A stretch of 64,000 nucleotides of DNA from Microthyrium microscopicum. Its lineage: Eukaryota. Of the stretch, positions 6,057 to 53,754 are shown in pieces. A model generated the notes under the pieces. The model had not been told where the DNA came from. It did not search any database and worked only from the letters and a program-made list of their open reading frames with translations. Position 1 is the first letter of the stretch; the number at the start of each line of letters is the position of its first letter. Location: NCBI GenBank assembly GCA_010405405.1, contig MU004237.1, forward strand, positions 1,375,345 through 1,439,344, read 5' to 3'. The position numbers were made by a program, and so were the translations under genes.

Positions 6057-6133
6057 TAACCCTCCCTTTTAGTATAGCTTTCTAGGCTATAGACTACTAA
6101 TTATATCTACTTTCTTAATCTATTCTATTCTAA

Positions 6134-13254: not shown

Positions 13255-13481
13255 TATAACGAGCTATGGAATTTAGAGCAAGCAGATAATTAGATTATAT
13301 TCTAGAATCTATAAATAAGAGAGAGAGAAAAGAAGATCTAGAAGAGTTATAGATCTACGAAGGAAGTAAGTCTGCTTAGCAGATCCTTAGGCGTACTAAC
13401 CCCCTTAGGTCTAGTACGTGATCTTGCAATAAGATCTCTCTTACAATACTGCTATGAAGCCTATAAAGAGGAATCATTACA
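13255..13481 (-). repeat. 5' LTR of Gypsy element 2
   Basis: Direct repeat of 5830-6056; ends CATTACA, followed by TSD CCTTC. Confidence 0.95.
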
Positions 13482-21672: not shown

Positions 21673-22362
21673 GGTGAGGGTTTGGAGTGAGATTGGTTGT
21701 GAGGGATCTTTTGTGGTGAGTTAGGATCTTGTAGGTTGATGAATACGTTTCTTTGCTTACTGCTTCTTCGGCTGATATAAAGATTTAAGGTTGGTCGGGT
21801 TTGGGCTAACTCAATGAGATGTTACGGAGTAGTTGATTTCAGTTCTGTATTCCACAAGAGTCTTCGAGCAATTGATGGAACTAGCTGGATGGATATGTGG
21901 ATGGGTGGTAGTTGTCCAATTCAGATCTTCTCATCATGGGCAAGGGAGCATTTTATCTCCAGAAAGACCCATGTCTTCTATGTATCAATTGTGGGTGTAA
22001 GTTGGGGGCCTGGTGGTTATCATGCATCCGGACACCATTCGGCAAGATCATCCCCTCTGCCAATACAAGCATTGAAGATGTATCAAAAGGTTCAAAGTAC
22101 ATACTGTCCGATCATTTGGCGAATGTAACAAGGGGAAGAAGATATTCTGGGACTTGCCGTCCAGCAAGCCCACAAGCTGGTTGCCAATCAGCGGGGGAAA
22201 CGTCCCACATGGAGGCTCGCTTACGGAGATTTAGATAGCAGAACCACCTTCAACGAGAATCTTTCCACTTGCCGACACGCCCGACAGGCAGACACTCAAA
22301 AATATAGATCACTAAGCAAGAGCCTACCTAGTCTCGGTGCAAATTACCTTGAAGGAAAAGGC

Positions 22363-29827: not shown

Positions 29828-30845
29828 GTTACTAGTTTTACTAGACGGATAGGCTGTGTATGTTTGGAGATGGTGAGAATTGTTGCGAGATAGTTTGATG
29901 GGGTGGTGGTGGAATGTAGATATTGGTGGTGGTTAAATAAGAACAGGGGTTGCGAAGGCACTGGGATTATCGTAGTGAGGATGGCGCGTTTGTCTACTAT
30001 ATGAAGAAATCGTTTGCTGTATGTCGATTGGATCGGTGGTTGCGGCAATTGAGGACGAAGGGGAACGTAGAGTATTTATTCGATTCCTTGGAGAGTTGAC
30101 GGAGTGAAGTTGGTGTTGGACTGTTACTGCAGCGATTCGGCAGAATTCCTCGTTTGGCAGCAATAACGGTTTCTCAAGTCTCAGTCAGTGAAGACTTTGA
30201 CACTCCTTAAAGATCAATTGAGAGTAGTGAGATATGGGGAAATGACGGTTCCTGTCAAACTGGAAGAACAAGTATATGGATTATTAGATAGGAAGGAGCA
30301 TAGCTGACAAGCATTTAATATTTGCATAAAAATGGAAGGAAGGCTTGACTTTTTAATCCCAGAAAAATCAGTCCTTAGCAAACCACCAAAACCATTGCTT
30401 TTACCAACCGATTTTTTCCTCCTTAGCAAAGAACTTGTCTGGTCTTGTGCATCAAGCGGGGAATCCAAAACTGCATACTTTACTTTTTTTCCCATAAAAT
30501 TCAGATCTTCATCCCATCGTGCAGCACGGAATGATGCAGCAAGAAAAAGGTTCCCGGCTTACTGGGCCCAGCGGCGGAAAGACTAATACCTTTTATTCAT
30601 TGTAGTACCCCACGTTATTCTGGTTGTAAGTAAACTTTTCAAGCGCGGAGATGAGAAATCATTTCCTTGCTTTCACGATGTCTTTTTCTTGCCGAGTATT
30701 CTTGGCGAATGTGTAAGACGGTAAGACCCCAATTTGAGTCTAGCCCGGCGGCAGGAACCGAACGTTATCGTAAACTTTGATCATCCATTGGGTTCGGATG
30801 TAAGAGTGGGTGTCGTGTGTCGCAAGGCATTGCCGGATGTGGTGT

Positions 30846-32796
30846 CACCATTCCGCCTTCTCGTCTTCCAGCTTCAAGCCTTGCACCTGGGCACTAATCT
30901 CTAGGGCCTGCTAAAGCTCTCCCTATTCGTCTATAAGCCTTAGTAAAGCATGCCTATCTTTAATCTTATTCGTGGCGACCTTAAGGCTAAGAGGTCCTAC
31001 CTATAAACTTTCTAAGACACCCTAGACTATATTTACTACTTTACTAATAGCTTAGGCATTAAGAGTAAGGTTAAGGCTACCTTCTTTTGCTAGAATCTTA
31101 TACTTAAGAACTATACCCTAAGATAAAGAAATTATTAGACTATTATACTAACTAAAAAGTAGTAGTACTTTAGCTTACTATAGTATACCTTAGTATATAA
31201 TACTAAGGCCTCTATAGTAGCCTAAGCCTTAAAAGATTAAGTAGATATAAGTTTATAAGACTTTACTCTTATCTATATCTAGATTAATAATTAGGAAGTA
31301 TACTTCTCTTTATATAATCCTAACGTAAAGATAGCCTAATAGTTTATATATATATTCTATAAGGCTTATAAGTAAATTGCTAGACTAGTCTATATTTACT
31401 AAATACCTAAGTATAAAAATATTAAAAGTAATAACTACGTTAATCTACTTACTAAGTAAGGTACTAAGAAAAGGTCTACTAACTACCCTAACCTATTAGC
31501 TAAATTAAAGAGTACTACTTATCTTAAGATATCTATTAAGAGAGCCTTAAATAATACCTAGTAGAAGAAGTAGACTAAGAGTAAATATAGCTATAAACTA
31601 TATATTCTTATTAAATAAGTTAACTACTATAAACTAGATTTCTACTTTAAAATAAATACTAGAGTTACTAAAATACTTTTTTAACTAAAGTTAGATTATA
31701 TAGAACTAAGAGACTATCTTTTTAAGATTAGCGTAGTAAATAATACTTTCTACTAATATTATAATAACTATACTAACTAAATAGTTTATTATATTCTCTA
31801 TATCTACTTAGGTTTTAATACGCTATAACTTTAAATATAAACTAATATAAGTAGAGTAGTAAGTTATAATAAACTACTAGTAGACCCTATAAAGGTATAA
31901 CTTACTATAGTCTTTATTATTAAAATAGACGCTATCTAAGATATAAGGTATATAGAGAAGTAAAGAATTAAAGTAAAGGCTACGCTTAAAATTAAAGAAA
32001 AGGAGACTACTATAGAAAGGAAAGAAAAGAAGCAAAAGCTCTATCTCTAATAGAAAGCTTAGGTAACTAAGTACGTCCTTAGAAAGCTAATACTCTTACT
32101 TATATAATAATCCTTTTAAAGCACCTAAGGCTACTAGAAACTAGAATTACCTAAGAAAAACTATCTTTATAGGCTAGGGCTCTATAAGATAATAGAGGAA
32201 TTTAAATATAAAGCTAAATTATTAAACTTTAGAAAGCCTTCCCTACTTTAAACTTTTTATAGCAATTCTATAATAACTTAATAGACTACTATATACGCGA
32301 AGAGATAGTAAGAAGCTAAGAACTATAAGAGGATTAAGAAGAAGACAATAGAAGGAATAAGAGAAGAAACTAATAAAATAGCTAGGAGGCGTTTATATAC
32401 CTACTTCTTTACTAGAAGAGAGGCTATAACCTTAAATCTAGTAGTGCTTAAGACTTATTATACCTTAAGTATATTTAGTATTTATTATTATCTTTTAGAG
32501 CATTAGGAATATTATCTTTTTAGGTTTAGGGGCGTTATTATCTTTTAGGCTCCCTTTAAGACCTATATTTAGTAGTATCTTAAATTAGGATATATCTTCT
32601 ACTAAGTCTTACTTACGCAATAACTTAAATATTTTAAGAATCTTAGGGTTAGATATAGATATTAATAATTAGGGCCAAAATCCTATATATTAAATAGCTA
32701 TTATAGAGGTGGCTACATTAGCATAATACGTGCTAGTATCCACTATATAACGGTAGAACTAGTCAAGGCTAAATCCAAACAAACAAACAAACAAAA
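30846..32796 (+). mobile_element. 5'-truncated non-LTR retrotransposon (Tad1-like LINE with RNase H), RIP-mutated
   Basis: 13-bp TSD CCGGATGTGGTGT at 30833-30845 and 32797-32809; (AAAC)n 3' tail. De-RIPed RNase H motifs FT(D)(G)(S)GI at ~31040, Y(D)(A)(E), WI(D)N, and (W)IP(G)(H)..I(E)(G)N..V(D)LL(A)K at ~31400-31455. Confidence 0.88.
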
Positions 32797-34164: not shown

Positions 34165-35935
34165 GATTGAAAAAGTGTCTTAATGTAGAATTGCTGTATC
34201 CGTCTCGACTCGGAATGAAACAAGCGATTCTATTATGCAGAGAACTTCTTTATCTGCTTCAGTGAGGGATGAAGTATGTGGCTTGCAGTATTTGATGGTA
34301 CCAGTGACAGCAAGTGTACCGATCGCCTCTGACAGTTGATGAAATATTGAAGGCTTTTGCTATACCTTGGATGTTTATTTGTGAAATTGATTAGAGATGC
34401 ATCTTTATGTCGGTGGATGCATCTCAATCATATTTCCTTGCAATGGCTCTGATCAAGACTGGAATCATCGCTGATGTCGGAGGCTTTCCTGGTGACCTCT
34501 TGCTCACGCGTGAACGCGTCTTCAAACAACAATATTTTATGGAAACCGTGTGTTTCTTTACATTTCTGGGATACTTTCACATATGTGACGTTGGTGGCGC
34601 ATCTAAGGGGTGATCGATATCGATGCTCACGGAGTAGACTCCGAATTATTACTCCTGAATTATTGTTCAACAACAAGAAATCGGTTTGGACATGAAGACC
34701 ATCAATTTTGATGCTGATGAGATCTAAGCCTACTTTTCTATAGGGTCCCATAACGATAAATCCGGCAATAGCTGTGAAGTTGACTCATGGTTGATTGACG
34801 ACTGCCTTATCGTGGCACAGATTTCTTCCAAGATGCAAAGTTGTCACTGCCTTTTATTTTCGAGCGGGAGAAATTGACCGGACATTCACATGGACCAACT
34901 TCTTCCTACTCGGCATAAATCGTGTTTATCTCATATTACACTTGTAGCCAAGTACTTGATCTAGTTTCGAGTCTAACTATCCGAATATCGTTCTGGAGTC
35001 CTTGCGTTTGTCATAGTAATCTAGCATTTCATCTTACAGCTGTACCGTAGTATGAATGGCCCTTTAAAAATATTCAGGGACTGCGACCATGACTCTTGCG
35101 ACCTAATGTAGACTTACTCAAGAGAAGACCAGAACAGACATTCGGTACTCCTATCAACTGCAGAAGTTGTATTATACTTCTCAGCATGTAGGACACATTG
35201 TGGTCTCCATGCTAGTCGTCTATGGGAATATGGAGAAAGGTACCTCGCTATTGGATACAGATAAGTTTAGGAGCATCGTGTTGTTCTTATAAGTTCAGGC
35301 TCAGTTGATTAGTTCAGTGTCTTTCAATATCACTGACTTTAGCCCTTGGAGAGCTACTGATTACGGCACGTCCCTCATGGTTTGATAATGCCCTTTTGCT
35401 CGCGAATTCTGAGAGACTAAAATCAAAGGCAACGTGTGTCGAAGATTAGTACTTAGGTTTATTCCACCGCGTTTTTATTACTCCGACGGTAGCTAGAGAC
35501 TCTCCTACCAGACGCAGGTACCACCTAAGCCTTCGTGACCGGTTTAAGCTTTTTGCTAGCTTTGAACATATGAATATCATAGTATGGTTGCGCTTTTCAA
35601 GGGTTTCATGCGGGGAACGAGATGGCATTATCCATGAATGGTCTTCCTTCAGAGCGGTTGTGGGGAGGAGGTACCTTGGAGTAATATCACATTTATCCCA
35701 TGAGTGCCCGATATCTTGCTTTCCACAGAATAAGCATACAGAATGTGTTTGATTGATCCCTTCTGACAATATGCGTGTCTAATAGGACGTTCAAAGTAGT
35801 TTGCGCTAAATTAGAATAAATCCAAGGAGGTTGAATGCCTATAACATAAAGAATCCATCCCATTTTGGTACTTGGCATGGACTACATCTAACTTCCAAGC
35901 ATTCAGATTCGTTCCTTTGGTTTAGCGCTCACATC

Positions 35936-37306
35936 ATGAAATTCCACAATTTATCGATGGCTTTGGCCTACGGTGTCATGACAGTATCGGCGCTTAGCCC
36001 ACCAAAGATGATATCTACCAGCAGAGACTTGGACGCTGGCAAATTTTTGAATAATTTACAGAAACGAAGTCTCTCGGGTATGCGAGCTTTCCTACGCGTT
36101 ATGGCAAAGCACAGCCAATCGATAACAGCAACAATCAAGACCCTCACCGACCAAAATGCGTCGGCGCAAATGCCACGGCTGAACATGCAGCTACTGCAAA
36201 TGAGCAAAGAAATGTCCTCCGAAGCGAAAAAACTCAAGGCTTCCGGTACTCTGGGCATCACAGACCTTCTCACAGTCGTGACCGCCTCACAGCGCAAAGA
36301 ATACTCTGATCTAATCAACATTGAAATAAAAAATCTCCAAACGGTCATGAATGAACTCTTGGCTAAACGCAATGTGTTCATCTCGTCCCACACAGCCAAT
36401 GTTATTGCACCAGGCGTCAAAGCACAAGCCAAATCACTTGTTGAAGTCTTTGCCGTGATTCCAAGCCAGATTCCTTACAAGTCAACCATTAACTTCATCC
36501 TGGACAACGCGATCCGCTCGACGGCGAGTCAGCTGGGTAAAAGCGTGGGCAGTGTTATTCCTGGTTATACCGAGCCAGTACCGTACAGCGGCCTTTTCTC
36601 CAAAAACACACCAAAGCCTCAGTCTCAGAGTCCTTCAACCGCGTCTGGATCGCGAGGGTCGAAAGGATCGAAAGGAACGCCAGCAAAATCTCCCACTGCG
36701 CCAAAGGCTTCTGCTCCGACCTCCGCTGTTGGAATTTCATTGTCGTCGTTCTTGACTTATGAAGTCACAGGGTATCCGGTAGTATATGAATGGCTCCCAA
36801 CAAAAGGAGAGATAAGTCGCGCGACGCTGGATAGTATCGAAAAGGCAGTTAGTCAGGCTTTGGATACCGTCGTTTACTTTTTGAAAGGAGAGTGGAATAT
36901 CTTTCCTGACTTTTCGACCCTGGAAGGCACAATCTCTTGGCTGTTTGGTACTGGACCAAAGCCAGAGTTTAATCCCAAGGACGTTCAGGCGTTCTTTGAT
37001 ACTTTGATTAGTAAATTGGAAGAGCAGGTTGCGGCTTTGATACCTCAGTTGCTAGAATACCTGAAAGCACAAGGAATCAAAGACATTGGATCACTTCTCG
37101 GTGGTGGTGGTGGTGCTGCTGCTCCCACAGCAAACCCAGCGGTCGCACCAGCGTTAGGTCCACTCGGCGGACTTTTTGGTGGAAAGACATCGAAGTTGGG
37201 AGTGGTTGTATCTGGTCTACTGGAAGCCGGAGCACTTGCGGAGCTTATTGATGGAGTTCAAGCACCCGAAAACGCGTCAATTGCTAAGGGAATATCAGCG
37301 GTATAG
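35936..37306 (+). CDS. Secreted protein with an HsbA/Mp1-like helical domain and Ser/Pro/Gly-rich linker
   Basis: Signal peptide MKFHNLSMALAYGVMTVSA, QKR site, HsbA-like pattern (ELLAKRNVF..VIAPGVKAQ....IPSQIP); single long ORF. Confidence 0.7.
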   Translation: MKFHNLSMALAYGVMTVSALSPPKMISTSRDLDAGKFLNNLQKRSLSGMRAFLRVMAKHSQSITATIKTLTDQNASAQMPRLNMQLLQMSKEMSSEAKKLKASGTLGITDLLTVVTASQRKEYSDLINIEIKNLQTVMNELLAKRNVFISSHTANVIAPGVKAQAKSLVEVFAVIPSQIPYKSTINFILDNAIRSTASQLGKSVGSVIPGYTEPVPYSGLFSKNTPKPQSQSPSTASGSRGSKGSKGTPAKSPTAPKASAPTSAVGISLSSFLTYEVTGYPVVYEWLPTKGEISRATLDSIEKAVSQALDTVVYFLKGEWNIFPDFSTLEGTISWLFGTGPKPEFNPKDVQAFFDTLISKLEEQVAALIPQLLEYLKAQGIKDIGSLLGGGGGAAAPTANPAVAPALGPLGGLFGGKTSKLGVVVSGLLEAGALAELIDGVQAPENASIAKGISAV

Positions 37307-37820
37307 GATGTTCGCTAAATCAAACCAAACCTAACCTATTCGAACCCTTTCCCGAAACTACCCATTCTTCCATCCATTAATACTAACAAGAAATCCGATG
37401 ATTGCAGCGTTCAACTGTATGTAACCCGATCCTGTAATGGGCTCAATAGTGAGCTTGATACAAGCATTTTTGAACAACAGATTATGAACAAGTCTTTTAT
37501 GGGAAGATCATATTAGGCAGGCTGATCTTCGTAACGATAGCGTGTAGACTGAAGACGGAAAAGCGTCTAGTGACAACCGATATATTCTATATCAAACCTT
37601 GACGGTCATTGTCACAACAACCTTATCAATTTGATTGATTGGAGTCCCATCAATGGCACAGCAATGCCCAGAACCCTAGCGACCTGGATATAGAGTAATC
37701 GCCTAGTCAGAACGAAGGATGATTCTGAATCACAATCCGCACAATTCCAAGGCCCACACAATACTACAGTCCACATAATGCGGCAGTTCATCCAGTCCTA
37801 CTCCGTACACCCACTTGGAC

Positions 37821-40759
37821 TCATAAAACAATAAGGAAGACGGCAAATGCCAAGAGCGTGAGTACAAGCAAAGAAGCGGAGAAGAGGAAGAGAAATCCCG
37901 CAACCAGGTGACTCAACAAACCTGGCTTTCCCTCCCCAGCAGCCTTGACGATAAGAACTTTGTCGACCGCCTTATCGCCGAGCTCCTTGAGTTGAGATGG
38001 GACATTGTCCACACCAGCACGAATGTCAGTCAACTCGCCTGGCTCGTTGCCACCAGTAGCTTGGACAACAATGTCATGGCTAGCCTTGATGTCAGCTGCC
38101 TTGAAGGCAATTGGGATCTTCTCGAGAGCAGCACGGATTTCGCTGACAGGAGCTTCTTCACCAACTTTCTGCTGACATCCAACTGCCTGCTCTTGCTCAT
38201 CGTGGTCATCATCTTCTAGAGGTACAACTCGGTAGCCCAAATGAATCTCCATGTTGTCAAGCAACCACTCCATTGGAGTGATGTAAGTTAGATCAACATT
38301 GTCCTTGTCGCCGCAATTATTACCCTTGATGCCGCCAAATAGCATACCGCAAATCCGACCACCAAGATCGAAGACTATAGATCCAGAATCGCCTTTGGCG
38401 GAGAATGCGGAATCAATTGGCGACATGACAGTCCAGGCTTTGGTTATTCGTCCATTGAAACGAAGAGTGGACTCAAGAGCGACGATTTTGCCGAATTTGA
38501 GCCCGGAAACGGCGCCAGACTGGCCAACAGCAATGCATGGCTGACCGTCTTTGTCTTTGTAGGGAGGATTGTCGAGCTCATCGATTGGGACAATGCCCTT
38601 CAGCTGGAGCTTTAGGATATGTTGAGGAGAATTGTCTTTGGAGAGTAGCATCTCGACCGGGATGGTGGACTCGTCAATCATCTTCCAGAAGGTTGCTTGA
38701 CCAATAGCTGGAATGATGATCTCGTTTTGGATTGGTGTTGAGAATTTGGTATTGTAGATTTTAACTAGAGCCCAATCTTGGTCGAAGGATGGTGTGCCAT
38801 TGACATCGAAGGTTTCGCGTTGCTCAGGAGCATGAAGGACTTTGCCAAAGACTCGTTTGGTCAAAGATGCATATCCATTGAGGACTGTGGCTGTAGAGCT
38901 GGCTCCATTCAGTCCATTTCCATTCAAGTCACTACCATTCGACTCGTCAGGGCTCGACCCATCGCCATGAGATGCATCAGCTACAGAATGCTCATCTTCA
39001 TGTCCAGCGTTGGCTTTCCATTGCGCACAAAAGCTCTTCTATAGCTCTTGAACAGCAACGAGAACGGCATCAGAGTGGTCGATCATCTCCTGAAAGGTCT
39101 CTCGATTGACGGAAGACAATTTGGGCTTCTGAAGATGGTCTTTGTAGTATTTTGCAGTGGTTCGGCTTCGGTTCTCTTGGGCTTTGAACTGATCGATAAC
39201 GTCTTCGAAGGCCAATTCCCCCAAATAGACGGCCTGTTTGTTGTCCGAGAGAGTGATGGTGGGTTCAGTGTCGGTGTCTAGGACGTGGCGACAAGTCAAT
39301 GCCAGATGATCTGGCGTTTTGAACGACATTGGAGCAAGAAATGATGTATCTCCTTCCGCTCCAGACGGCTTGACGGTAGCTTTTTGTAGGAATAATCCCA
39401 GGGTGCCTGTTATATGTTAGTTTCAGTGGACCAACAATCGCATCTTTCGCGACAGAATGGCCACATGCAAAACAACAGCATGCTCCCATCAATTGCGATG
39501 GCTACCATGCAACGCGCTTCGTGTTGGAGTTTTTTCTTTCCCACAAGAGGCTTCCGAGTCTCAATGATTGACCGAGTGAGATGGTAGATGCAGCATCTTT
39601 TACTTAGAAGCGTAGGTGGCAGCCAATCGAAGTTGATGGGAGTGTGTCATATACGCTGCGTCGTGCTGATAGTGACTTACCTGAACGTTTTGATTCGTTA
39701 TTGCCTCGAATTGAGCATCCATTGTGAGGCTGAAGCATGCGCTCTAGGTCAGAGACGCTAGAAGGCAGGCTGAAGCCAGTGGTTGTAGTGATGGTTTGCG
39801 CCGATTCGACACGAACCGACTCTCGGATCTCGCATTCGACGTTGGATAGATCATGCTTTTCCAAGATTTGAAGACACTTTTGAGCAATATCTAGACCTTT
39901 CGACCTAAAAACTGTTAGTAAATGGTCGATTTGAAGCGCGGGCGCGTCGACAAAACACATGGCTGGCTGCCATCAAGTGCGATAGGAGACATTGCATTTG
40001 ATGGGAGCTCGACAGGTGTTACGTCCACCGTTTGGGTACAAGACAAAGCTTACCAAGAAAGAGAATCAGGATCGACGCTTATCCACAGCACAACCGGGAG
40101 CGATTTGGGATCGACTGGAACGTAGTCGATTTCGCGAGCGCCAATACGAACAATGTCTATGCTGTTCCAAGCAACTGCATTGGAGTCTAAGATCCCAATT
40201 ATCTTGACAAGAATATCAGGATGTGCTTTCCAAGTTTGGATAATAGGATGATCGCGATAGTCGTAAAGGTACTTTCGAGTCGGGTGTGGAGGAGTATCAG
40301 GGGCCTGACCAGATTAGCTACTACTAAGTAGGTAGAGAAGGAAGGATATAATCACAAGTTCTCGCCATGGGGTTGTGGAAGTGCGCCCAACTAAGCGTGG
40401 AAGTGTTGGAAGACCATAGTAAAACCTGATTTTCTGTTAGCGGTGGTGGCAGCCGTAAGTCGATTGCAGACTTACCAAGTTTTCTCTTCCTCGGAAGGTT
40501 CAGCTGTGCGGGTGTCTGTAGCCATTGGCGAATTTGGAGCCTTTTGATCTTCAGAAAGATTGGCGGCGCTTGAGTTGGTAGCCATCGGCGAGCTCAGGGT
40601 AGAGCGCTGCGGTTTCAAAGATTTCCGTCGAGTAGTGGGCGTAAGATCTTGAATTTTTGATGATTTAGAAGAGTGCGTAGGTGTGGGCGCGGGGCTTCGA
40701 GATTTTGTAGGAGAATATTTAAAGGTCAAAGGTCTTAGATCTGCAGAAGAAGGGGCCAT
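37821..40759 (-). pseudogene. Trypsin-like (PA clan, Ssy5/NAL1-like) serine protease gene with one in-frame TAG at 39039-39041: pseudogene, or an editing/readthrough-dependent gene
   Basis: Exons 40759-40476, 40425-40356, 40304-40054, 39904-39681 and 39406-37821 total 2415 nt (805 codons including the terminator). Triad motifs ALTCRHV, DWALVKI and GDSGS are present, plus a C-terminal transmembrane helix. The only lesion is TAG at codon 399. Confidence 0.8.
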
Positions 40760-41626
40760 ATTGAAGATTTATGGGGTTGTTACAGAATAGGTGAGGGAAA
40801 TATTACGAGAACAAGTAGGATCGATCTCTGGTTTGAGAGTCTTTTGGCGATGCTTGCTGAAGAGGGTAATTCGATTATGTTGGGAGTTCAACATCAAGGA
40901 GCGGGAGATTGGAAACTCATTATTTGAGTAAACATTGCTCCATATGTCTACAGTGACAGGCAAGGCTGGACAAGGCTGAAAAAGTGAAGTAATGTGGCTT
41001 GCCGCTAGTCAGATTAGCGCGTCGGGCCGAACCTTACGTTAAACTTGATCCTGGTCTAGCTCCGTTCAAAGTGATCCTCGCTGAGTTTGGTGAACTATAA
41101 CCATGGAACATCATTCCAAAGATAATAAATTTATGTTATTCTCAGAGGGATCTGGATCTGTTCGCCTCCAACTGCTACCAACAACAGCCAGTTTCGACCT
41201 TTTCAGCCCACGAGAGCCAACGCCAGTATTACAATGTCTAATATGTTGACTGAACCCACAGAGGTAAGTATTTGTAATCTTGTACAATAAGCTTGATGTG
41301 GATACCATCATATATTACATATGACTGCCATCGCACTCGATGGCGGCAGTTAATTGCGGTGGAATTTTGGCTGGAAAGACATTTCCGTCTTTGCAGGGCC
41401 TCATGACCTTGCGAAACTCACTTTCAAGTCTGATACTAACAAATTCAACAGTCTAGACTAGAGGCACTATGGAACGATGCAGAGGTTATATCATTATTGC
41501 TGAGTTGCTTCTTTAAGTAGAATCGTGGATTGCCTCAACATACACCAAGTACATAACATGACAATGCCTAATGGGAGCGCTTCGATGATACTCTTCCTTC
41601 ATCTAGACTTTTGATGGTTTCTTTGC

Positions 41627-42778
41627 CTATCTACAACCCTTGGGATACGAGCTGGGCCCCACGCACACCGGGGCGTCGTCGTCGTATACTTTCCCTGACC
41701 AAGTGTAAAGGAATTCACCTAGTTGAGCAAAGACGGGACTGTAAAGTTCTTGGTGTAATTTCCGAGCGTCAGTAGGAAGCTTGGCCTCGATAGCGAGAGC
41801 CATGTTCTTGATAGCCTTGTTTGTTGCTGTAACCAATTTTTCGATAACACGAGCCTGATTAGTTTTCAGAAGAAGGTATCTCTTTGAGTTGAGGGAAATA
41901 ACAAGTTTCTCAACCGATTGTAAGACATTTGAAGCTTCTGCCTCGACTTGCTTTACGCTTGATGAAGGGACGCTTGCGGCAGTTTCGATTTGTCGTATAG
42001 CATATCCAAAGTTGTTCTGCATCACCAAGTCTCTTTCTGCCAGTAATTGCGGACCTGGTCCTTCAGTGAAGCCTTTGACTTCTCCGTCTAGGCTTGCTAT
42101 CTCCTTGGTAATCGAGCGGATTGACGAAATGATAATTGAAGAGCCGTCTTGAGGTTGAGACAGAATACGCCAATCTTCGATACGGTCCTGTAAAGATGAT
42201 ATGATGGGCTGTATTGCGTCTCGGCTTACGGCCACAAGTTCTGGAGGCATTTTGCCTCCGATAAGACCAGACATATCTTGGATGTATCCCAAAATCTTTT
42301 CAAGAATCCTTACGACAAACTTCTCCTGTCCGCCTTTGACTAGTGAATCTTTTGCTTCGTTTAGAGTGCTTAGGAGAGACTCCATTTGCGGCTTTATAGT
42401 ATCTCCGATGGTTCCCTGGACTGTGAATGCTTCCTGGGTGGAAATACAAGTTGATTCTGCAAAAATGGAAAGACCTCTGTTGAGGTCTGCCATTGCAACG
42501 TTCCAGTTTTGAGATAACGTAGTTGGATCTGGAATGGATCCAAGAAAAGCCATGGTAGCGTATGTTATACCCCTCGCGATGCTCTGGACTCCTGATGTAA
42601 TGACTGAAGCTTGACGCTTCACCCTTGAATTTGTCGGGTGTAGTGCAACAGGGTCTGCACACGTCAGTTCGGCTGTCGAAACAATGGTGGCATCCTCTCG
42701 TTTTGCGAACGGATGATCAGTGACGGCAATCACTGAGCCGATGAGGAGTAGGAACGAATATCTGTCGGATAACCTCAT
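41627..42778 (-). CDS. Secreted protein with two tandem HsbA/Mp1-like domains
   Basis: Signal peptide, two KR sites, two repeats of the pattern (L..L.(E/S)(A/K)K..L.K......V...L......I..K(M/L)P); intronless. Confidence 0.8.
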   Translation of the reverse strand: MRLSDRYSFLLLIGSVIAVTDHPFAKREDATIVSTAELTCADPVALHPTNSRVKRQASVITSGVQSIARGITYATMAFLGSIPDPTTLSQNWNVAMADLNRGLSIFAESTCISTQEAFTVQGTIGDTIKPQMESLLSTLNEAKDSLVKGGQEKFVVRILEKILGYIQDMSGLIGGKMPPELVAVSRDAIQPIISSLQDRIEDWRILSQPQDGSSIIISSIRSITKEIASLDGEVKGFTEGPGPQLLAERDLVMQNNFGYAIRQIETAASVPSSSVKQVEAEASNVLQSVEKLVISLNSKRYLLLKTNQARVIEKLVTATNKAIKNMALAIEAKLPTDARKLHQELYSPVFAQLGEFLYTWSGKVYDDDAPVCVGPSSYPKGCR

Positions 42779-44456
42779 GTTGGGTTTGTATCTTCTAAAC
42801 AGACGTAAGGAAAGGGCGTAAGCGTCAAATGATACTGATTTGAAGGTGAATTAGTAGCAGAACGCTGAAGTATGTGGCAGACAGCGATTAAAAACAAGAT
42901 AGAAAGGAACAAGATCAGCGGTCGAGAAAGGTTGGACGTCAAATACTGAATTACATTGAACCAAGAAGAAATTAGAGAGATCACTATGAACCGAATTATA
43001 TCAATCGAATCCTACAACAAGGACCTATTTTCATTTCTCGGAATATATCCCAAAGGTAGCCTCTACGGTCTGGACATTAGTCTTACCACAGACGCTCTGT
43101 TCATATACTGTCTCGAGAAGGATCTCTGATCTTTAAGGATTGAATCCAATGAAGGGTGACAGATCGTATGACCCATCCAAGCAAATCGACATTCCCATTG
43201 GCAGCTAGGTCTGAGAGTAAAGATGAGCGATATTGGACCTGAACCTGAAGGTATAGTGACAGCAAGTATTTTCATTATTTGACTAAATATAAGGATCGTC
43301 TTCGGCGTTATTCATGACTTCGGTTAAGTTAATAAATTATAAGTTCCGCTCGCGAATCAACTTTAGAATGCGATAACCGATCAGAGTTAATAACCTTTGA
43401 GGACGCACGATGATTAGAAAAGAGTTCTAGACGAGTGGCCACCTGTGGCTTGCAAGCCGAGGAATGACAAATTGGAAGGATGCAACTAATATTGCAGATA
43501 AAGTTAACTGCAGAAAATGATTACCCGAGCATCGTAGTGATACCAGGCGAAGTCTAGTCGGAGTAATCATTGACATTTTTGCCAAACGAACTGATGCAAT
43601 CCGGAAATGCAGTGAAATAGATTTGCTTCGAGAGTAGAAGCAAGATAGGAACGTGCCAATCTTCTGTATTTCACTTTCCTGTATTATTGATATGATCTGG
43701 GGCTGTAGCATCGTTTCTGCTCATTGTTGGACTGGCAGGTGTTTGATGAACGACATGAACTGCCAGGCCCTAGGACTATTGTAGAAGCAACAAAGGAGGG
43801 AGTCTCAGACCACAAACACTGAAATCCTGTCTTAGCTCCAACATGCTGCCATATACTTGACAAAATCGAAAGCTTGCTATCACTGCTCTCGACGTAGAAT
43901 CGAAGGTAGACTCCTGGGAATGAACAGAAGTAACTTATGAGATTCAGGAGACATCAGGCTAGTAGGATCGAGCTGACGAAAGACTATTTATCTGTCTCTA
44001 ATGGTAACCCAGTACAACGGAGGATAAAAAAGTACAATAGCCTGCCCTTTCGACTCTCCAAAATGCCCAAGTGATATCATCTGTAGAACTTTTCGTGGAC
44101 ACACACCCTTAGATTAATTCAAGTACATTTCTGTATAAGATACTAGAATACAGGTATTCTGTCGGCTCCTTTTTGAGTACCGCTCTGTATGGCTGTAAAT
44201 TGACGCCTCACACGGTTATGGTCGCCAATAGCAGCCACAGTTACTGTGCCGCCTCCTGCAATTGGGTTTGATTTGATTGCGGGGCTATAGCAAGATCTCG
44301 AACACCATTCACGATCACAACATCTACCCGCGTACCTGTACGATGACTATGCTTCAAGACTACCTGCTTGGTGTTTGAGATATTGCACTTTGCCGTTCGC
44401 TCTTCAGCCTTGCACCAACGTTCAACTCCGGTCGGGATTCGTGACTACCTCTGATC

Positions 44457-48275: not shown

Positions 48276-51200
48276 CTAGCTTTTATCAACACCATCCTCC
48301 TTCTGCTGCCTCATCTTCTTCTCCTTCCTCTTCGTCCCCTTCAACACATTCAAAACCTTTCGACCACCCTGTAAATAAATCCACGAGAACAAGAACACCA
48401 GTCCAAACTGGATAATAATGTACGCCCAAAAAATCCCATAATCCCTCCAAACATTCGTGTAGTAAATATTAAAACTCGCCGCAAATTGATCACCATTCGC
48501 AAACTGACAATACCCACACATTCCACCCGGCTGCGTTTGCACATATCCACCCGCCTGTTGGGCAAATGGACCGGCATAGGTGTCACAGGACTGGCCAGAC
48601 GGGGGCGTGAAGAGCGCGAGTTCTTGCGTTTCGCATTGGACGGGGACATTGTGGACGACTAGCGAGAGCATGGCTTCGAGAAGCCATTTGAAGGGTGTTA
48701 CCCAATACCTTTGGAAAAATTAGTAAGTAACATGGCATAGGAAGGGGGATGTAGGGGAGGTGGTTGGTAAGGCATGAGTGGAATAGGGGCGGATAGGGGA
48801 ACTTACATCCAACTTCTCCAGAATGTTGGTAGTGCAGGATATGGTACAACGACACCACAGAATGAGACGATGAAGGTGAAGAAGACCGGGACTAGGAGGG
48901 AGGCGAGGAGCTCGTTGGGCGAGAAGGCGGCGATAAATTGTCCGAAGCCGAGATAGAAGAGCTCAAAGGATATGACCATTAGCCACATGCTGGCGGATGT
49001 ATAAGTGTCTCTTGGGAACCAGATCGCCCTATCGAAGTGTCAGTATCCAGTGGCCCTGGATCGTGGATGTATATAGACTTACCAATACCAACAGCACCAA
49101 TAAATCGTGCCTGCGACAATTCTGTACGGTATCTCAGATACAATAGTTCCTGTGACGAAGGCAACCCAGCTGTAGATCTTTGAATTCGCTTCTCTGCTTT
49201 CATAGATATTGCGTGCATTCAAGAAGCGTGGCTGCAATTGTTGAATCAATGGTGGAGAAATCGTAAGTGTCATGAATACGCTGAAAATACGACTTTGCAT
49301 ATCAATCTGCGAATTGCCCAAATGCCAAAACGTAAAACTGTTGAACAAACCAGTCATGATATGCAGAATAAACATGCCGAGCACATAGTCCTGATTTCGC
49401 CACATCGCCACAAAAGATCGGTGTGACACTGTGAAGATCTGCGTAAGTAGAGGCATGGCGTATGTGCTGTTGAGGGTTTTCTTGTTAGAGTCGGAGGTAA
49501 CGTTGGATTTCTCGCGGCGGTCAGAGATGATGGACTGGATTTGTTTTGTCAGCGCGCTGTTTTCTTCAGACTTTTCCCAGATGTCGCCCCAGTCTGGGCC
49601 GTTGTAGTTTGGATCGCCGGCACCAATGGCTTCGAGCATGTATTCTGCTGGGTTGACTTTTGGTGGACACTTCTTGGCGCCGTTGCTTTCGAGGTAGTCG
49701 AGTAATTGCCTGCTGTCCTGTCCTAGGTCGCCAAAATAGACTGTTCGACCACCACTCTTTAGGAGTAATAAGCGGTCAAAGTTTTCAAAGAGTACGCTAG
49801 AGGGCTGATGGATTGTGACGAGGAGTGCTTGGCCTGCGTTGGCGAGTTTGCGTAGGAAGCGCAGAATGTTGAACGCGGCGGCACTGTCGAGACCTGATGT
49901 AGGCTCGTCAAGGAACATGAGGAGTTCTGGTTTGGAGGCGAGTTCGACGCCGATTGTTAGTCGTTTGCGCTGTTCTTGGCCGAGGCCATTGCCTGGTTCT
50001 CCAATGACTGCGCCAGCGATTTCGCGCATCTCGAGGAGATCGATGATCTTTTCTACGTACTCATACTTTTCGGCAAGGGGAGTGCTTTTTGGTTGACGGA
50101 GTTTGGCTGAGAATTGCATGGCTTCTCTGACGGTTGCTTCGTGGTTGTTAGTATAAACCGACTATGGGGAGAGATCGTATGCATACCAGTAGGCTCATGG
50201 ATATCCATCTGTTCAGCAAACCCAGAAGAACGCTGAAATGACTTTGGCAGCGGCTTTCCGTCGACCAAAAAGTCTCCAGTAACAACACCCATACGAATCC
50301 GTTGCGCCAGAGTATTTAGCAAAGTAGTTTTGCCAGCCCCGGAAGCTCCCATGAGCGCCGTCAACTTGCCAGGCTGTACGAAACCTTGAACATTCTGCAA
50401 TAGTTGACGTTGGCCACCTTTGTATGGAATCTTGTCTACAACATGTCAGCAAGGATGTTCTCAGGAATCATAATTGACAAGTACTTACAGTTGACATCAT
50501 GAAACGTAAAAATAGCCTCATTGCCAGCAATCTCCTTGACTTGGTCTTCATTCTCCTCCTGCGAAGAATCGCCATTGGTACCGAAGTCCTTCTCCTTGGT
50601 GCCATCTTCCAGATCATCAGGACGTTCTGAAGATTCGATCGCCTTAGTAACGCTGCTAGGAGCTTGACCGCGTTTATAGATAGTAACAGCTCCACCGCCC
50701 TTGTTTGGCTTTTGCAATTCCATACCAATGATTGTAATCGCGAAGAAGAGGGCAAAAAATGCCCATATAATCCCAAAGTTTCGCCATAAATGGCTGCGGC
50801 TGTATCCATACGCCACGGAGATGTAATTCGCGCCAGAAACCGTAGCAGAGCCTGGGGTAGAGCCTTGAATTGCGCAGCCTTGGTTGGCTACGTTGGCGCC
50901 CGGGATGGAGGGGACTAGATAGGGTGTTACGCATTGCATTTCCAGGTTGTAGAATTCGTTGGACATGACTGCTTCAAAGGCGTATTGGACCTAGAGTAAT
51001 TTATCAGAGAGAACCAAGAGGATTGGGGGTACAAACTTACAGGATTGCACCAGCGGAGCCAGGAGAACCAGGGATGCATCTTGCGTGGTGGGATCAAGTA
51101 GCCGGTATAGACGATGAGAACTTGTAATGCCACGCCAGTGACTCTCGTAGCGGCATCTAGACTTCCAAAGGTAGCGCCAACACACCGGAAGAAAGCGTAC

Positions 51201-53754
51201 ATGGTCATGGTAATGGAGAAGATGATGAGCAAGCTGATGAAGAATTGGCTCGGTGTCCGTTGCAAGTTTGCCATGAAGTATACAACCAAGTTGAATATGG
51301 TGTTTTGGACAAAGACCAGTGGAACGTCAATGACAGTTTGGGCGATAGCGTAGGCGGCTGGTCGGTAGAAACTGAAGGATTTGTGCTTCATTAGAATTGG
51401 ACGAGATTCAAAAGCGGCGTTAAGTTCTGCGAGGGCGAGGAGGGCGTTGAAGAGGAGCATGAAAAACATTACACCACCTCTGGTGAATGCACCTTCTACA
51501 GTTTTTGGCAGGTTGTAGAACAATGAGCCTAGGTTAAGTTAGCTGGAGGTACTGGTATAAAAGACGAGGAAACAAGTTTTTCAGTGTCATATCAGATTTC
51601 CAATGAGAGACAATCTGATATGAAATCGAAATCATGATACCAACTTCATTGGAATCGCAGAAAAACATACCAACAATCAAAGCCTGGAAACCAATACCAG
51701 CCCATTTTCCAATAAGCGACTGTCTATCCCCAAGCATAACCAACCATTGCCGTTTCGTACAAGCAATAACCTGCGCCGGGAAGCTAATAGCATAATTCTT
51801 CGTCTTTGTCGCCTTCCCTGTACTCGCCTCACGCTGCCTCAATTGCTCAGCAGCATGTGTTTGAAACTCTTCAATCTCTTCCACATTCTCCTTTGCAATA
51901 TCAGACTTTGCAAAAATGTCCGCAAACTGAGCAGCAGATCTAGGAATTCTATCTTCCCAGCCTTCCTTGATATGCCGTTCATGCGGATCCGTCGTAGACG
52001 TCAAGAAATCTGCGGTAGTCCATCGATCAGGCTGGATAAAACCTAGCCCCTTGAAGTAATCTGCTGCGCGGTCTGCGGGCCCAAAGTAGCAGCATTTCCC
52101 CTCGTCGATGAGTAGGACTTTGTCGAAAAGCTCGTAGAGAGATTCGCCAGCTTGATAGAGGGCGACGGCGGTGCTGATATGCGTCATGTTGGTCAGTGAG
52201 CGGATGGAGCTGACGTATTCTAGTGCTGTGCTGGCGTCTAGACCGCGGGTGCTGTTGTCCCAGCATTGTGTGCTGGCACGCGTAATCATAGCCTGAGGGG
52301 TTTGTTAGTATGAGAATAGGGGTGGTGGAGAGGGAGTTGGTAATGTACTTCGGCGATTGAAACTCGCTTCTTTTCACCGCCGCTGACGCCACGAACGAAT
52401 TCGTTGCCGACGAGCGTGTCCATGGTGTGTTCGATCCAGAAGAGTTTGGAGACTACGCGCATAAACTCTTTGATGTATTGGCCTTTACTCTCGCCTTCAT
52501 TTCGAGAGTCTTTGCCAGGAGCTTTGGTTTGAAGCGCAAACCTCAGTGTATGCTTGACCTTCAGCCTATTATCCATTAGTCAAATTCATGCAGCCAGCAA
52601 AAACTGAGAAGTACAACATACGTCGCATAATGAAGATCATCTTCCGGGTTATACAGCACCTCCCCCCGAAACTTCTTCCCCATCTCCGCCGCCGACGTCC
52701 CACCATACGTGACCTCCCCATCAACAGCCTCATACCCAAACCGCTGATTTCCAATGACCTTCAAAAAAGTCGAACATCCAGATCCAGGACGTCCCAGCAC
52801 AAGACACATCTCTCCCGGCAGAATACTACCACTGAAATCATCAATGATAGTTCTCACTGGTGGTTTACTCTTGATACCCTTCTTCCCTTTGAAAAGACCA
52901 CCAATAAGTCGCGGCAATCCCATGAAGATATCGCCAGTACTAGCCTGCAACGCAGCACCAAGTCCCATACCCTTGACGGTCAAGTTTTTCCACACAACAC
53001 CTACATGACGCGTCTTCTCTTCTTCGCTGTTTGCTTGGCGGGTACGGCCGAACATGCGCGAGAGAAGACGTTCGATTTCTGCTTGTTCGCCTTTTTCTTC
53101 TTCGGTTTGCGCGCGGCCGAAAGATGCATTGGTCTTTTTACGAGAAAAGGAGCCGTTGGTTCGGCGGCGCGAGAGGGTGCGGATGAGATCATCTTCTGTG
53201 ATTTGGCGCTCTTCAGTTGGTCGGGTTTCATTATTATCGCCTGTGTGCTTTTCATTGGTGTCGGTGGTTCTGCTAGGTCCGGTTTTGATGGGTGCGAATT
53301 GTGGTGATGGTGAATCTTCCGCTATTGACGCGGGATCTTCTACGGCTTCTTGGTCTGGTGGTGTTTCTACGTGGGTGGTTGTATCGGAGACGGCGACAGA
53401 TTGTTGACTTTCGTGGATTCCGGAATGGGTCATGTCTCCTGCGATTGGTCGCGCAGGAACTGGCGCGGCAACAGGGTGTGGTGGTGAAGCTACTACCTGT
53501 GGTGGTATATCTAGAGCATGTGGTGTTGAGTCTGTCTTTGTTCTCGTGACCGTTCCCGCAGCGGCCGGTCGTGCATTCTCGGTGGATGGATTTATAGCAT
53601 TTTGGTCTGCAGTAGGGTTGGCAGTTGGACGGATAGTCGCCATGGATCTTGTTGATATTTCTGAGGGATTTCGACTGTTCATTGAAGGGGTACCTGGCCA
53701 TGCTCCAGGAACATGGTCCATGGAAGGAGTAGGTTCCGCAGACCTATCTGCCAT
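48276..53754 (-). CDS. atrF: Full-size PDR-type (ABCG) multidrug ABC transporter, AtrF-like; multi-exon
   Basis: NBD1 [34 protein letters not shown]1; NBD2 [34 protein letters not shown]2; C-terminal WRDYGIFW. The N-terminal [25 protein letters not shown] recalls Aspergillus AtrF (symbol from memory, tentative). Confidence 0.92.

What the first reader, a model, noticed from the sequence alone, without database searches (positions are those of the whole stretch)
39028..39050. Premature UAG in a tRNA-anticodon-like hairpin of an otherwise intact protease gene: candidate restorative A-to-I editing switch
Seen: the 5-exon gene keeps all splice sites, its frame and its full catalytic triad, yet has one in-frame UAG (codon 399) between the catalytic His and the Asp/Ser. 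The mRNA reads CAAGAGCU-AUAGAAG-AGCUUUUG, an 8-bp stem (one G-U pair) with a 7-nt loop. The stop's U is loop position 2 and its A (39040) is position 3, which matches U33-A34 of an anticodon loop with anticodon AGA. Established: tRNA-Ser(AGA) A34 is a Tad2/Tad3 substrate. Sexual-stage mRNA A-to-I editing in Fusarium and Neurospora uses Tad2/Tad3, prefers U at -1 and hairpin loops, and converts premature UAG to UIG (Trp). Inference: this protease may be made full-length only when edited, giving a stage-gated proteolytic switch. If the host is not a Sordariomycete, this would widen the known range of such editing. Alternatives: CAG>TAG is also the classic RIP/deamination change (although the flanks show no RIP bias), an assembly error is possible, and short hairpins arise by chance.
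Basis: partly seen in the sequence, partly recalled or inferred. Interest (0 to 1): 0.85.

Follow-up and report, generated by a model that had tools for sequence, protein, structure and literature searches.

The report
Hairpin-tipped stop codon in fungal protease
An otherwise intact serine-protease gene of a Dothideomycete fungus carries one premature UAG at the tip of an unusually strong RNA hairpin, which is either a young knockout allele with a chance hairpin or the first sign of stop-codon-repairing RNA editing in this class, and no RNA data exist to decide.

Summary
Observation confirmed. A 5-exon, 805-codon minus-strand gene (40759-37821) has a single internal stop: TAG at 39041-39039, codon 399, between the catalytic His and the Asp/Ser of a chymotrypsin-fold protease. 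The A (39040) is position 3 of a 7-nt loop closed by 8 bp. That stem is the tip of a 56-nt, 21-bp hairpin, with pair probabilities 0.94-1.0 in contexts up to 801 nt. Among 1370 TAG trinucleotides in the window's normal-GC part, 6 sit on an equally stable hairpin, and only this one combines the anticodon-like register with a stem longer than 4 bp.

The interpretation could not be tested: no RNA run covers the gene, no orthologue was found, and no genome is held. The host is a Dothideomycete. The papers I read report A-to-I mRNA editing only in Sordariomycetes and one Pezizomycete. U at -1, G at +1 and an "AGN anticodon" hold for every UAG, so only the hairpin carries information. Intron, RIP and assembly error are rejected on sequence grounds.

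My odds: young nonsense allele with a coincidental hairpin about 0.5; restorative A-to-I editing about 0.37; other about 0.1. One RT-PCR amplicon from ascomata versus mycelium would settle it.

The parts
37821..40759 (-). Protease gene: 5 exons (40759-40476, 40425-40356, 40304-40054, 39904-39681, 39406-37821), 805 codons including the final stop
   Evidence: the joined exons give 2415 nt, starting with M, with stops only at codons 399 and 805, and canonical donor, branch and acceptor sites in 4 of 4 introns. In the 22-sequence alignment, which holds exon 5 only, the exon-5 product shows the family motifs. I compared exons 2-4 (YYGLP, HPI..W, SIDIVRIG, VECEIRES) by eye with that alignment's consensus.
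39039..39041 (-). In-frame premature TAG, codon 399 (residue X123 of the exon-5 translation P0001). The candidate edited A is 39040.
   Evidence: A DNA contig of depth 992 is identical here (possibly the source of the assembly).
39028..39050 (-). Inner hairpin: 8-bp stem (one G-U), 7-nt loop AUAGAAG, with U at loop position 2 and A at position 3
   Evidence: -7.0 kcal/mol, z = -2.42, 5 of 200 shuffles fold as well; pair probabilities 0.94-1.0 in contexts of 61-801 nt.
39013..39068 (-). Extended hairpin branch: 56 nt, 21 bp with small bulges, -19.8 kcal/mol, with the TAG at its tip
   Evidence: 6 of 1370 TAG sites have a branch at least this stable; 30 of 2000 synonymous recodings reach it.
39285..39287 (-). 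Catalytic His codon (motif LTCRHV), upstream of the stop
   Evidence: Invariant column H41 in alignment A1.
38775..38777 (-). Catalytic Asp codon (motif DWAL), downstream of the stop
   Evidence: Invariant column D211 in A1.
38385..38387 (-). Catalytic Ser codon (motif GDSGS), downstream of the stop
   Evidence: Invariant column S341 in A1. The Pfam Trypsin_2 match covers residues 264-355.
38922..39005 (-). Low-complexity, predicted-disordered segment just after the stop (residues 135-162 of P0001), inside the variable helical insert between His and Asp
   Evidence: pLDDT below 50 for residues 135-162. X123 lies between helices 102-121 and 125-133. The insert varies in length and does not align across the family.
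37824..37919 (-). C-terminal hydrophobic tail (last 32 residues, 81% hydrophobic). It ends an extension of about 130 residues that is absent from the 21 aligned homologues.
   Evidence: and 56 (helix 497-527).

Best explanation
This is a young loss-of-function allele. A single point mutation (CAG>TAG and TGG>TAG are both transitions) put a stop at codon 399 of a lineage-specific member of a large, fast-evolving fungal family of chymotrypsin-fold serine proteases. The unedited mRNA would give a 398-residue product that has the N-terminal domain and the catalytic His but lacks Asp and Ser, so it cannot be a protease. The hairpin under the stop is then coincidental, and the local amino-acid sequence favours it. 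Shown here: the gene model, the stop, the hairpin, the fold, and the host class. Inferred: that the allele is young and that the mRNA is not repaired.
For: (1) It needs no new biology. The host is a Dothideomycete. In the papers read, mRNA A-to-I editing is reported only for Sordariomycetes and Pyronema, was not found in A. nidulans or Botrytis, and the Ame1 cofactor function is said to have arisen in Sordariomycetes.

(2) The family is large and patchy. HMMER found 508 relatives at E<=1e-3, and the best is only 33-36% identical. No orthologue was found. Named relatives come from scattered classes.

(3) An intact remainder does not argue against a dead gene. Only 119 of 3645 possible substitutions in the 405 downstream codons would make a stop. 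The frame would stay open with 5% probability up to about 0.08 neutral substitutions per site.

(4) Part of the hairpin follows from the protein sequence. In 802 of 2000 synonymous recodings the A is still in a hairpin loop, and 124 of 2000 keep the 7-nt, position-3 register. Among window TAGs the figures are 26% and 0.4%.

(5) The flanking positions that are free to vary are 2 preferred and 2 depleted. The 121-nt region as a whole is not unusually structured.
Against: The hairpin is rare by chance. 6 of 1370 TAGs sit on an equally stable branch, 14 of 1370 in a hairpin of -7 kcal/mol or better, and this is the only TAG that combines the anticodon register with a stem longer than 4 bp. The native codons are more structured than 97-98.5% of synonymous recodings: 66 of 2000 reach its MFE and 30 of 2000 reach its branch energy.

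The stop is TAG, the only editable stop that becomes a sense codon. All 16 invariant and 16 near-invariant family columns are kept, most of them downstream of the stop. These statistics were chosen after seeing the site.
Confidence: 0.5

Rival explanations
1. This is a restorative (premature-stop-correcting) A-to-I editing site. The Tad2/Tad3 tRNA deaminase, with or without a stage-specific cofactor, deaminates A39040 in the loop. UAG is then read as UGG (Trp), and the full-length 804-residue tail-anchored protease is made only where and when editing is active. Elsewhere the gene is off.
For: A UAG in an otherwise intact ORF, with the functional domain completed only downstream, is the anatomy of the 71 PSC pseudogenes of F. 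graminearum (PMC10776026, passages).

The A lies in a very stable hairpin loop. 62.4% of F. graminearum editing sites lie in hairpin loops, and more stable hairpins are edited at higher levels (PMC4817773; PMC9600606). In this window 26% of TAGs lie in hairpin loops.

About 9% of UAG triplets are edited in perithecia. 71% of PSC pseudogenes encode disordered regions, and one follows the stop here.

Editing of a premature UAG in a hairpin loop, at 9-10%, occurs in vegetative Fusarium hyphae without the sexual stage (CHE1, PMC11169179). Pseudothecial fungi were named as untested in PMC7306014. Ame1 duplications and transfers in other lineages were flagged as worth testing.

The native codons are in the top 1.5-3% for structure among synonymous recodings.
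Against: There is no RNA evidence of any kind. The host class has no reported mRNA editing. No orthologue was found, so neither conservation of the TAG nor the ancestral codon is known.

-2 A and +2 A are of the depleted class. The protein sequence alone explains part of the hairpin.

As I recall it (not tested here), eukaryotic Tad2/Tad3 needs the whole tRNA architecture rather than an anticodon arm, so a bare mimic need not be a substrate without a cofactor.

My odds rest on guessed likelihoods for how often true sites have such hairpins. The papers' text gave no distribution, and the PDF supplements could not be read.
Confidence: 0.37
2. The stop is bypassed or irrelevant for another reason: translational readthrough of UAG, an unrecognised intron that removes the codon, a functional truncated 398-residue product, or an error in the assembly.
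For: The truncated product would keep the conserved N-terminal domain. No RNA data exclude an unusual splice. The only DNA support comes from a run that may be the source of the assembly.
Against: Intron: 59 in-frame GT..AG intervals of 40-400 nt could remove the TAG without opening a new stop. None of the 59 has a purine at donor position +3, whereas 4 of 4 real introns of the gene do.

Readthrough: the stop lies in the loop, so the hairpin is unwound when the stop reaches the A site. The 3' context AAG AGC is not one I know as a readthrough signal (recalled).

Assembly error: a contig of depth 992 shows no other letters.

The truncated product lacks 2 of the 3 catalytic residues.
Confidence: 0.1
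3. The TAG is a RIP (repeat-induced point mutation) lesion in a duplicated family member.
For: RIP has acted in this genome. Window 1-14000 is 23% GC, with TpA/ApT 1.74 and (CpA+TpG)/(ApC+GpT) 0.09. Both CAG>TAG and TGG>TAG are RIP-type changes.
Against: The gene has TpA/ApT 0.54 and (CpA+TpG)/(ApC+GpT) 1.42 at 48% GC, which is not RIP-affected. There is a single lesion in 805 codons. No paralogue lies in the window: the next tblastn match has E = 0.2. The nearest AT-rich stretch (30001-32000) is about 7 kb away.
Confidence: 0.03

Closest known systems
Premature-stop-correcting (PSC) A-to-I editing of 'pseudogenes' in Fusarium graminearum and Neurospora (PUK1, AMD1, 71 PSC genes; PMC4817773, PMC10776026)
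   Same: A single in-frame UAG in an otherwise intact ORF whose functional domain is completed only downstream. The A sits in a stable predicted hairpin loop. A disordered segment lies nearby.
   Different: The host is a Dothideomycete, not a Sordariomycete. There is no RNA evidence and no evidence that the TAG is conserved. -2 and +2 carry depleted-class nucleotides. The supplement text held for PMC10776026 contains no 'trypsin', 'peptidase' or 'protease' (1 file searched).
CHE1 hyphal PSC editing in Fusarium (PMC11169179)
   Same: A premature UAG in a hairpin loop is edited by the ADAT machinery outside the sexual stage. This shows that strongly loop-presented sites can be edited at a low level (9-10%) without the sexual programme.
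   Different: The CHE1 stop is conserved across Fusarium species and its editing was shown by RT-PCR. Here neither could be tested. CHE1 encodes a transcription factor.
TadA editing of tRNA-Arg-like mRNA hairpins in E. coli (as cited in PMC11169179)
   Same: A tRNA wobble deaminase acts on mRNA loops that copy the anticodon loop in sequence and structure. It is the closest analogue for 'works like' if no cofactor exists in this fungus.
   Different: TadA is a bacterial homodimer that accepts minimal stem-loops. The bacterial events recode sense codons and do not repair stops.
PA-clan serine proteases: NARROW LEAF 1 (NAL1) and Ssy5/Peptidase_S64, alpha-lytic protease fold
   Same: His-Asp-Ser order with a GDSGS motif. 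Foldseek matches alpha-lytic protease (E 1e-6) and NAL1 (E 2e-5). The family profile hits NAL1 chains at E 3e-4. Pfam S64 gives weak hits on homologues, and one is above the cut-off.
   Different: Sequence identity is only 13-16%. There is a long variable helical insert between His and Asp, a conserved N-terminal domain of about 280 residues of unknown function, and here a unique C-terminal extension with a membrane anchor.
Ordinary nonsense allele / young unitary pseudogene
   Same: One point lesion, everything else intact, in a dispensable-looking multi-copy family, and no product in the protein libraries searched.
   Different: The stop sits at the tip of a hairpin that about 0.4-1% of TAGs would match by chance.

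Membership tests
Fungal PSC (restorative A-to-I) editing site | A in DNA is read as G in RNA at the UAG | not testable with these tools
   No listed run is on record as RNA. The one guessed RNA run laid 0 contigs on the gene.
Fungal PSC (restorative A-to-I) editing site | The stop is UAG (U at -1, G at +1) | tested here: met
   This is automatic for any UAG.
Fungal PSC (restorative A-to-I) editing site | The edited A lies in a stable predicted hairpin loop (+/-30 nt fold, as in the papers) | tested here: met
   loop of 7 nt, position 3, branch energy -19.8 kcal/mol, rank 6 of 1370 TAGs.
Fungal PSC (restorative A-to-I) editing site | Preferred nucleotides at -2, +2, +3, +4 | tested here: inconclusive
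   +3 A and +4 G are preferred. -2 A and +2 A are depleted. Preferences are from PMC9600606.
Fungal PSC (restorative A-to-I) editing site | Otherwise intact ORF with a conserved domain downstream of the stop | tested here: met
   This is weak as evidence, because the frame would stay open by chance up to d of about 0.08.
Fungal PSC (restorative A-to-I) editing site | The host belongs to a lineage with demonstrated mRNA editing | tested here: not met
   The host is a Dothideomycete. Editing is reported for Sordariomycetes and Pyronema only. Dothideomycetes are untested rather than negative.
Fungal PSC (restorative A-to-I) editing site | TAG conserved in related species, or TGG/sense codon in outgroups | tested here: inconclusive
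   No orthologue was found. The best relative is 33-36% identical and does not align at the codon. Word searches and metagenome scans found nothing.
PA-clan (chymotrypsin-fold) serine protease | His, Asp, Ser in this order in conserved motifs | tested here: met
   H41, D211 and S341 are invariant in 22 of 22 sequences.
PA-clan (chymotrypsin-fold) serine protease | Double beta-barrel fold | tested here: met
   The model has mean pLDDT 70, with most of the second-barrel region (residues 171-400) above 80 in 10-residue blocks. Foldseek gives 62 PDB matches at E<=1e-3, led by alpha-lytic protease and NAL1.
Pfam Trypsin_2 (PF13365) | Score at or above the gathering cut-off | tested here: inconclusive
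   27.5 bits against a cut-off of 27.6.
RIP-mutated gene | TpA/ApT above about 0.89 and (CpA+TpG)/(ApC+GpT) below about 1.03 (thresholds recalled) | tested here: not met
   0.54 and 1.42 for the gene. The AT block 1-14000 gives 1.74 and 0.09.
Unrecognised intron spanning the stop | In-frame GT..AG interval with a donor like the gene's own (GTR at +3) | tested here: not met
   0 of 59 candidate intervals. 4 of 4 real introns have GTR.

The most novel reading that the evidence does not exclude
A Dothideomycete (Microthyriales-like host) repairs a premature UAG by A-to-I mRNA editing at an anticodon-arm-like hairpin. A tail-anchored chymotrypsin-fold protease would then be made only in the editing-competent stage. 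That would be a third, probably independent, lineage with restorative mRNA editing, and the first in fungi that form pseudothecium-type fruiting bodies.
Probability: 0.37. Interest if true: 0.8.

Novelty: new member of a known kind. Interest (0 to 1): 0.5.

Why it matters
A 2024 review calls it undetermined which classes of filamentous ascomycetes edit mRNA (PMC11156358). The group that found the Ame1 cofactor calls for tests in other lineages (PMC11087585). My three searches on the point found no paper reporting editing in Dothideomycetes: 'A-to-I' + 'RNA editing' + 'Dothideomycetes' gave 4 papers, of which I read passages in one, and 'pseudothecia' + 'RNA editing' gave 1 paper.

This site turns that question into a one-amplicon experiment in a culturable fungus. 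If it is edited, the known range of restorative editing widens and a protease becomes a stage-gated switch. If it is not, the site is a cautionary example: a near-perfect anticodon-like hairpin over a UAG can arise by chance in a plain null allele.

Tried and rejected
- RNA evidence: no RNA holder listed. The one run guessed to be RNA (X7) laid no contig on 37800-40800. This says nothing on expression.
- DNA from a second study (X5, X6): 4 short pieces, 0 differences, none covering 39040.
- Whole genome: not held. So there was no genome-wide count of single-stop genes, no search for Tad2, Tad3 or Ame1, and no tRNA-Ser(AGA) gene to compare. The window holds 0 tRNA genes.
- Orthologues: two word-index searches found nothing. 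HMMER over 1.84 billion representatives found only relatives at 36% identity or less. The protein scan of metagenome contigs gave 334 pattern matches, none confirmed. An exact 24-base scan gave 0. So the ancestral codon, dN/dS and conservation of the hairpin are all untested.
- Intron, RIP, readthrough, assembly error: rejected as set out under the rival explanations.
- Anticodon identity 'AGA' and the UAG core motif: rejected as evidence, because every UAG-N satisfies them (recalled list of A34 tRNAs).
- An 11-nt imperfect direct repeat around the stop (AAGAGCTATAG / AAGAGCTTTTG, seen): considered as a duplication that created the stop. Rejected because 11 nt is out of frame, and the AGCT palindrome makes direct and inverted repeats coincide.
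- Supplement of PMC10776026: no 'trypsin', 'peptidase', 'protease' or 'hairpin' in the one file held.
- Supplements of PMC9600606: 5 docx files were listed but I did not open them, and 4 PDFs cannot be read here. The distribution of hairpin energies or loop registers at true editing sites may be there. It would sharpen my odds.
- Other single in-frame stops flanked by at least 100 open codons on each side: 5 in the window. Only 39041 was followed up fully. By arithmetic on the ORF list, 50993 (TAG) lies out of frame with the ABC-transporter ORF there. 22126, 53405 and 61072 were not followed.
Full report
**What is there.**
The finding lies on the minus strand. Reading 41500-37000 in reverse complement and listing stop-to-stop frames shows two open stretches in one frame: 39416-39039 (125 aa) and 39038-37821 (405 aa). 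A single TAG at 39041-39039 separates them.

I derived the exon borders from splice signals and from homology, then checked them by script. Exons 40759-40476, 40425-40356, 40304-40054, 39904-39681 and 39406-37821 join to 2415 nt and 805 codons. The product starts with Met and has stops only at codon 399 and at the end. The four introns (50, 51, 149, 274 nt) have donors GTAAGT, GTGATT, GTAAGC and GTAAGT, a CTRAY branch site 13-15 nt from the 3' end, and YAG acceptors.

**What the gene encodes.**
I read exon 5 with X at the stop (P0001, 528 residues, X123).
- It scores 27.5 bits on Pfam Trypsin_2, against a cut-off of 27.6.
- HMMER over 1.84 billion representatives found 508 relatives at E<=1e-3, 102 at E<=1e-10 and none at E<=1e-30. 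The best are 33-36% identical, and only over residues about 170-395.
- Named relatives come from Sordariomycetes, a Eurotiomycete and a basidiomycete.
- In an alignment with 21 full-length relatives (A1), His41, Asp211 and Ser341 of P0001 fall in invariant columns. All 16 invariant and 16 near-invariant columns are kept in the window's protein.
- Read by eye against the consensus of that alignment, which holds exon 5 only, the products of exons 2-4 show the motifs of the family's conserved N-terminal domain.
- The stretch between the His strand and the RVxGHV/DWAL motifs varies in length across the family and does not align. The stop lies in this stretch.
- An AlphaFold2 model (mean pLDDT 70) puts X123 between two helices (102-121 and 125-133) of a helical insert, followed by a disordered segment (135-162).
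- The two barrels match alpha-lytic protease (Foldseek E about 1e-6) and rice NAL1 (E about 2e-5).
- A family profile reaches NAL1 chains at E 3e-4. Homologues give weak Peptidase_S64 hits, and one is above the cut-off.
- A C-terminal extension of about 130 residues ending in a hydrophobic helix is unique to the window's protein.

Without repair, the product would have 398 residues and only the His of the triad.

**The hairpin.**
- It persists in a 121-nt context, although that stretch as a whole is not unusually structured (z = +0.75).
- Stem pair probabilities are 0.94-1.0 in contexts of 61 to 801 nt.
- It is in fact the tip of a 56-nt, 21-bp imperfect hairpin of -19.8 kcal/mol (39068-39013).

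**Is the hairpin more than chance?**
I took every TAG trinucleotide on both strands of the normal-GC part of the window as the null.
- In the exact register (7-nt loop, A at position 3), 2 of 1373 have a stem of at least 8 bp. One is this site. The other, at +32176, lies in an AT-rich stretch.
- I folded +/-30 nt as the Fusarium papers do. 357 of 1370 (26%) have the A in a hairpin loop.
- 14 of 1370 lie in a hairpin of -7.0 kcal/mol or better.
- 5 of 1370 lie in a 7-nt loop at position 3, and this is the only one of those with a stem longer than 4 bp.
- 6 of 1370 sit on a branch at least as stable.

I then drew 2000 synonymous recodings of the 20 flanking codons from the gene's own codon usage.
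- 802 keep the A in a hairpin loop and 124 keep the exact register. The protein sequence itself therefore favours a hairpin here.
- Only 66 reach the native MFE, and only 30 reach the native branch energy.

The structure is real and uncommon, roughly 0.4-1% by chance. These measures were chosen after seeing the site.

**What does not count as evidence.**
U at -1 and G at +1 are the two strongest sequence determinants of fungal editing (PMC9600606, passages), but every UAG has them.

The match to "anticodon AGA" is also empty. As I recall it, the natural A34 tRNAs include AGA, AGC, AGG and AGU, so any base after UAG gives a "match".

Of the four positions that are free to vary, +3 A and +4 G are of the preferred class, and -2 A and +2 A are of the depleted class.

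Intactness of the rest is weak evidence as well. Only 119 of 3645 possible substitutions in the 405 downstream codons make a stop. The frame would stay open with 5% probability up to about 0.08 neutral substitutions per site.

**Alternatives that can be set aside.**
- *Intron.* 59 in-frame GT..AG intervals of 40-400 nt would remove the TAG without a new stop. None has a purine at donor +3, whereas all four real introns do.
- *RIP.* The gene has TpA/ApT 0.54 and (CpA+TpG)/(ApC+GpT) 1.42. Window 1-14000 (20-26% GC) has 1.74 and 0.09. No paralogue lies in the window.
- *Assembly error.* A DNA contig of depth 992 is identical over 37800-40800 with no other letters, but the run may be the source of the assembly.
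- *Readthrough.* The stop lies in the loop, so the hairpin is melted when the stop is decoded. This is inference.

**The host.**
An exon of the ABC transporter at 49079-50161 is 99% identical to a protein annotated as Microthyrium microscopicum. The next hits (about 78-79%) that carry an organism name are other Dothideomycetes.

In what I read:
- A-to-I mRNA editing is documented in Sordariomycetes and in Pyronema (Pezizomycetes). It was not found in A. nidulans or Botrytis (PMC11156358, passages).
- The Ame1 cofactor's editing function is said to have evolved in Sordariomycetes, with an independent origin in Pezizomycetes. Ame1 duplications and transfers in other lineages are flagged as worth testing (PMC11087585, passages).
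- A 2026 paper still names only those two classes (PMC13431901, passages).
- Pseudothecial fungi were called uninvestigated in 2020 (PMC7306014, passages).
- My searches for editing in Dothideomycetes returned 4 papers and 1 paper. I read passages of one of the four, which mentions the class only in a residue-conservation context. None of the five titles or abstract openings reports editing there.

So the class is untested rather than negative.

**What speaks for editing.**
- The anatomy is that of the 71 PSC pseudogenes of F. graminearum: a UAG, an otherwise intact ORF, and the domain completed downstream. 71% of them have disordered regions, and the TAGs mostly derive from TGG (PMC10776026, passages).
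- 62.4% of editing sites lie in hairpin loops, more so at high editing levels. About 9% of UAG triplets are edited (PMC4817773, passages).
- More stable hairpins are edited at higher levels (PMC9600606).
- A premature UAG in a hairpin loop (CHE1) is edited at 9-10% in vegetative hyphae, outside the sexual programme (PMC11169179, abstract and passages).

**Weighing.**
I could get no RNA, no orthologue and no genome. The verdict therefore rests on prior odds and on the hairpin.

My assumptions are guesses, not results:
- About a 10% prior that this lineage has a PSC-capable system.
- 10-70 PSC genes against about 10 plain TAG-nonsense alleles per genome, if it does.
- 1-3% of true sites on a hairpin this strong, against 0.4-1% by chance.

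These give a posterior for editing anywhere from about 20% to 80%. After discounting for post-hoc choice of statistics I put it near 0.37. A young null allele with a coincidental hairpin, which needs no new biology, is near 0.5. Everything else is near 0.1. The papers' text gave no distribution of hairpin strength at true sites, and their PDF supplements could not be read. That figure would move these odds.

**Novelty and value.**
Either reading belongs to a known kind. If the site is edited, it would be a new member of the PSC class in a class of fungi where editing has never been shown. It would also gate a membrane-anchored protease. The practical value is that one amplicon from ascomata versus mycelium answers a question that the field has itself called open.

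Noticed in passing
window 1-14000 (also 30001-32000): An AT-rich block of 20-26% GC with extreme RIP indices (TpA/ApT 1.74, (CpA+TpG)/(ApC+GpT) 0.09). It switches abruptly to about 45-50% GC gene-bearing DNA at about 14 kb. A milder AT-rich island lies at 30-32 kb (34% GC, indices 1.58 and 0.61)..
   Followed up: partly
window 39485-39501, 39624-39640, 39969-39985, 39989-40005, 41328-41344: A 17-nt partly palindromic motif (CCCATCAAnTGCGATGG-like) occurs 5 times with up to 3 mismatches, where 0.04 are expected in the 64-kb window. All copies lie in the non-coding parts of this one gene: two in intron 4, an inverted pair in intron 3, and one about 570 nt upstream of the ATG. A weaker copy lies in the 3' UTR (37645-37658). 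Another contig of run X3 also matches 39975-40008. It may be a regulatory site cluster or a small repeat..
   Followed up: partly
window 37824-38220 (C-terminal extension of the protease): An extension of about 130 residues with a repeated ...GG(N)EPG / GEGKPG... pattern and a terminal hydrophobic helix. It is absent from all 21 aligned homologues and suggests a tail-anchored membrane protease..
   Followed up: partly
protein P0004 (library hit, 827 aa): One relative of the protease carries an N-terminal WD40 beta-propeller fused to the protease module. This architecture is reminiscent of fungal NLR-like or self-recognition proteins..
   Followed up: no
window 37800-40800 in runs X5 and X6: Runs labelled as a different organism and study hold four short pieces (163-334 nt) of this gene at depth 2-4 with 0 differences. 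This could be low-level presence of the same fungus or carry-over. None covers the stop..
   Followed up: no
window +32176: The only other TAG in the window with an 8-bp stem in the exact anticodon-like register (loop CTAGGGC). It lies in the AT-rich island and was not examined for coding..
   Followed up: no
window 37821-40759: No product of this gene, whether truncated, C-terminal or with an artificial intron, appears in either protein library searched, although a neighbouring gene of the same window has a 99% identical annotated protein. The public annotation seems to have skipped the gene..
   Followed up: partly
window 22126-22128 (TAA), 53405-53407 (TGA), 61070-61072 (TGA), 50991-50993 (TAG): Four further single stops flanked by at least 100 open codons on both sides. 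These are probably frames crossing introns or lying off the true frame. Only 50993 was checked, and it is out of frame with the ABC-transporter ORF..
   Followed up: partly
window 41627-42850 (-), 35810-37306 (+): The neighbours of the protease gene are an HsbA (hydrophobic surface binding protein A) homologue and a 498-aa open frame with Gly/Ala/Pro-rich low complexity and no Pfam match..
   Followed up: no
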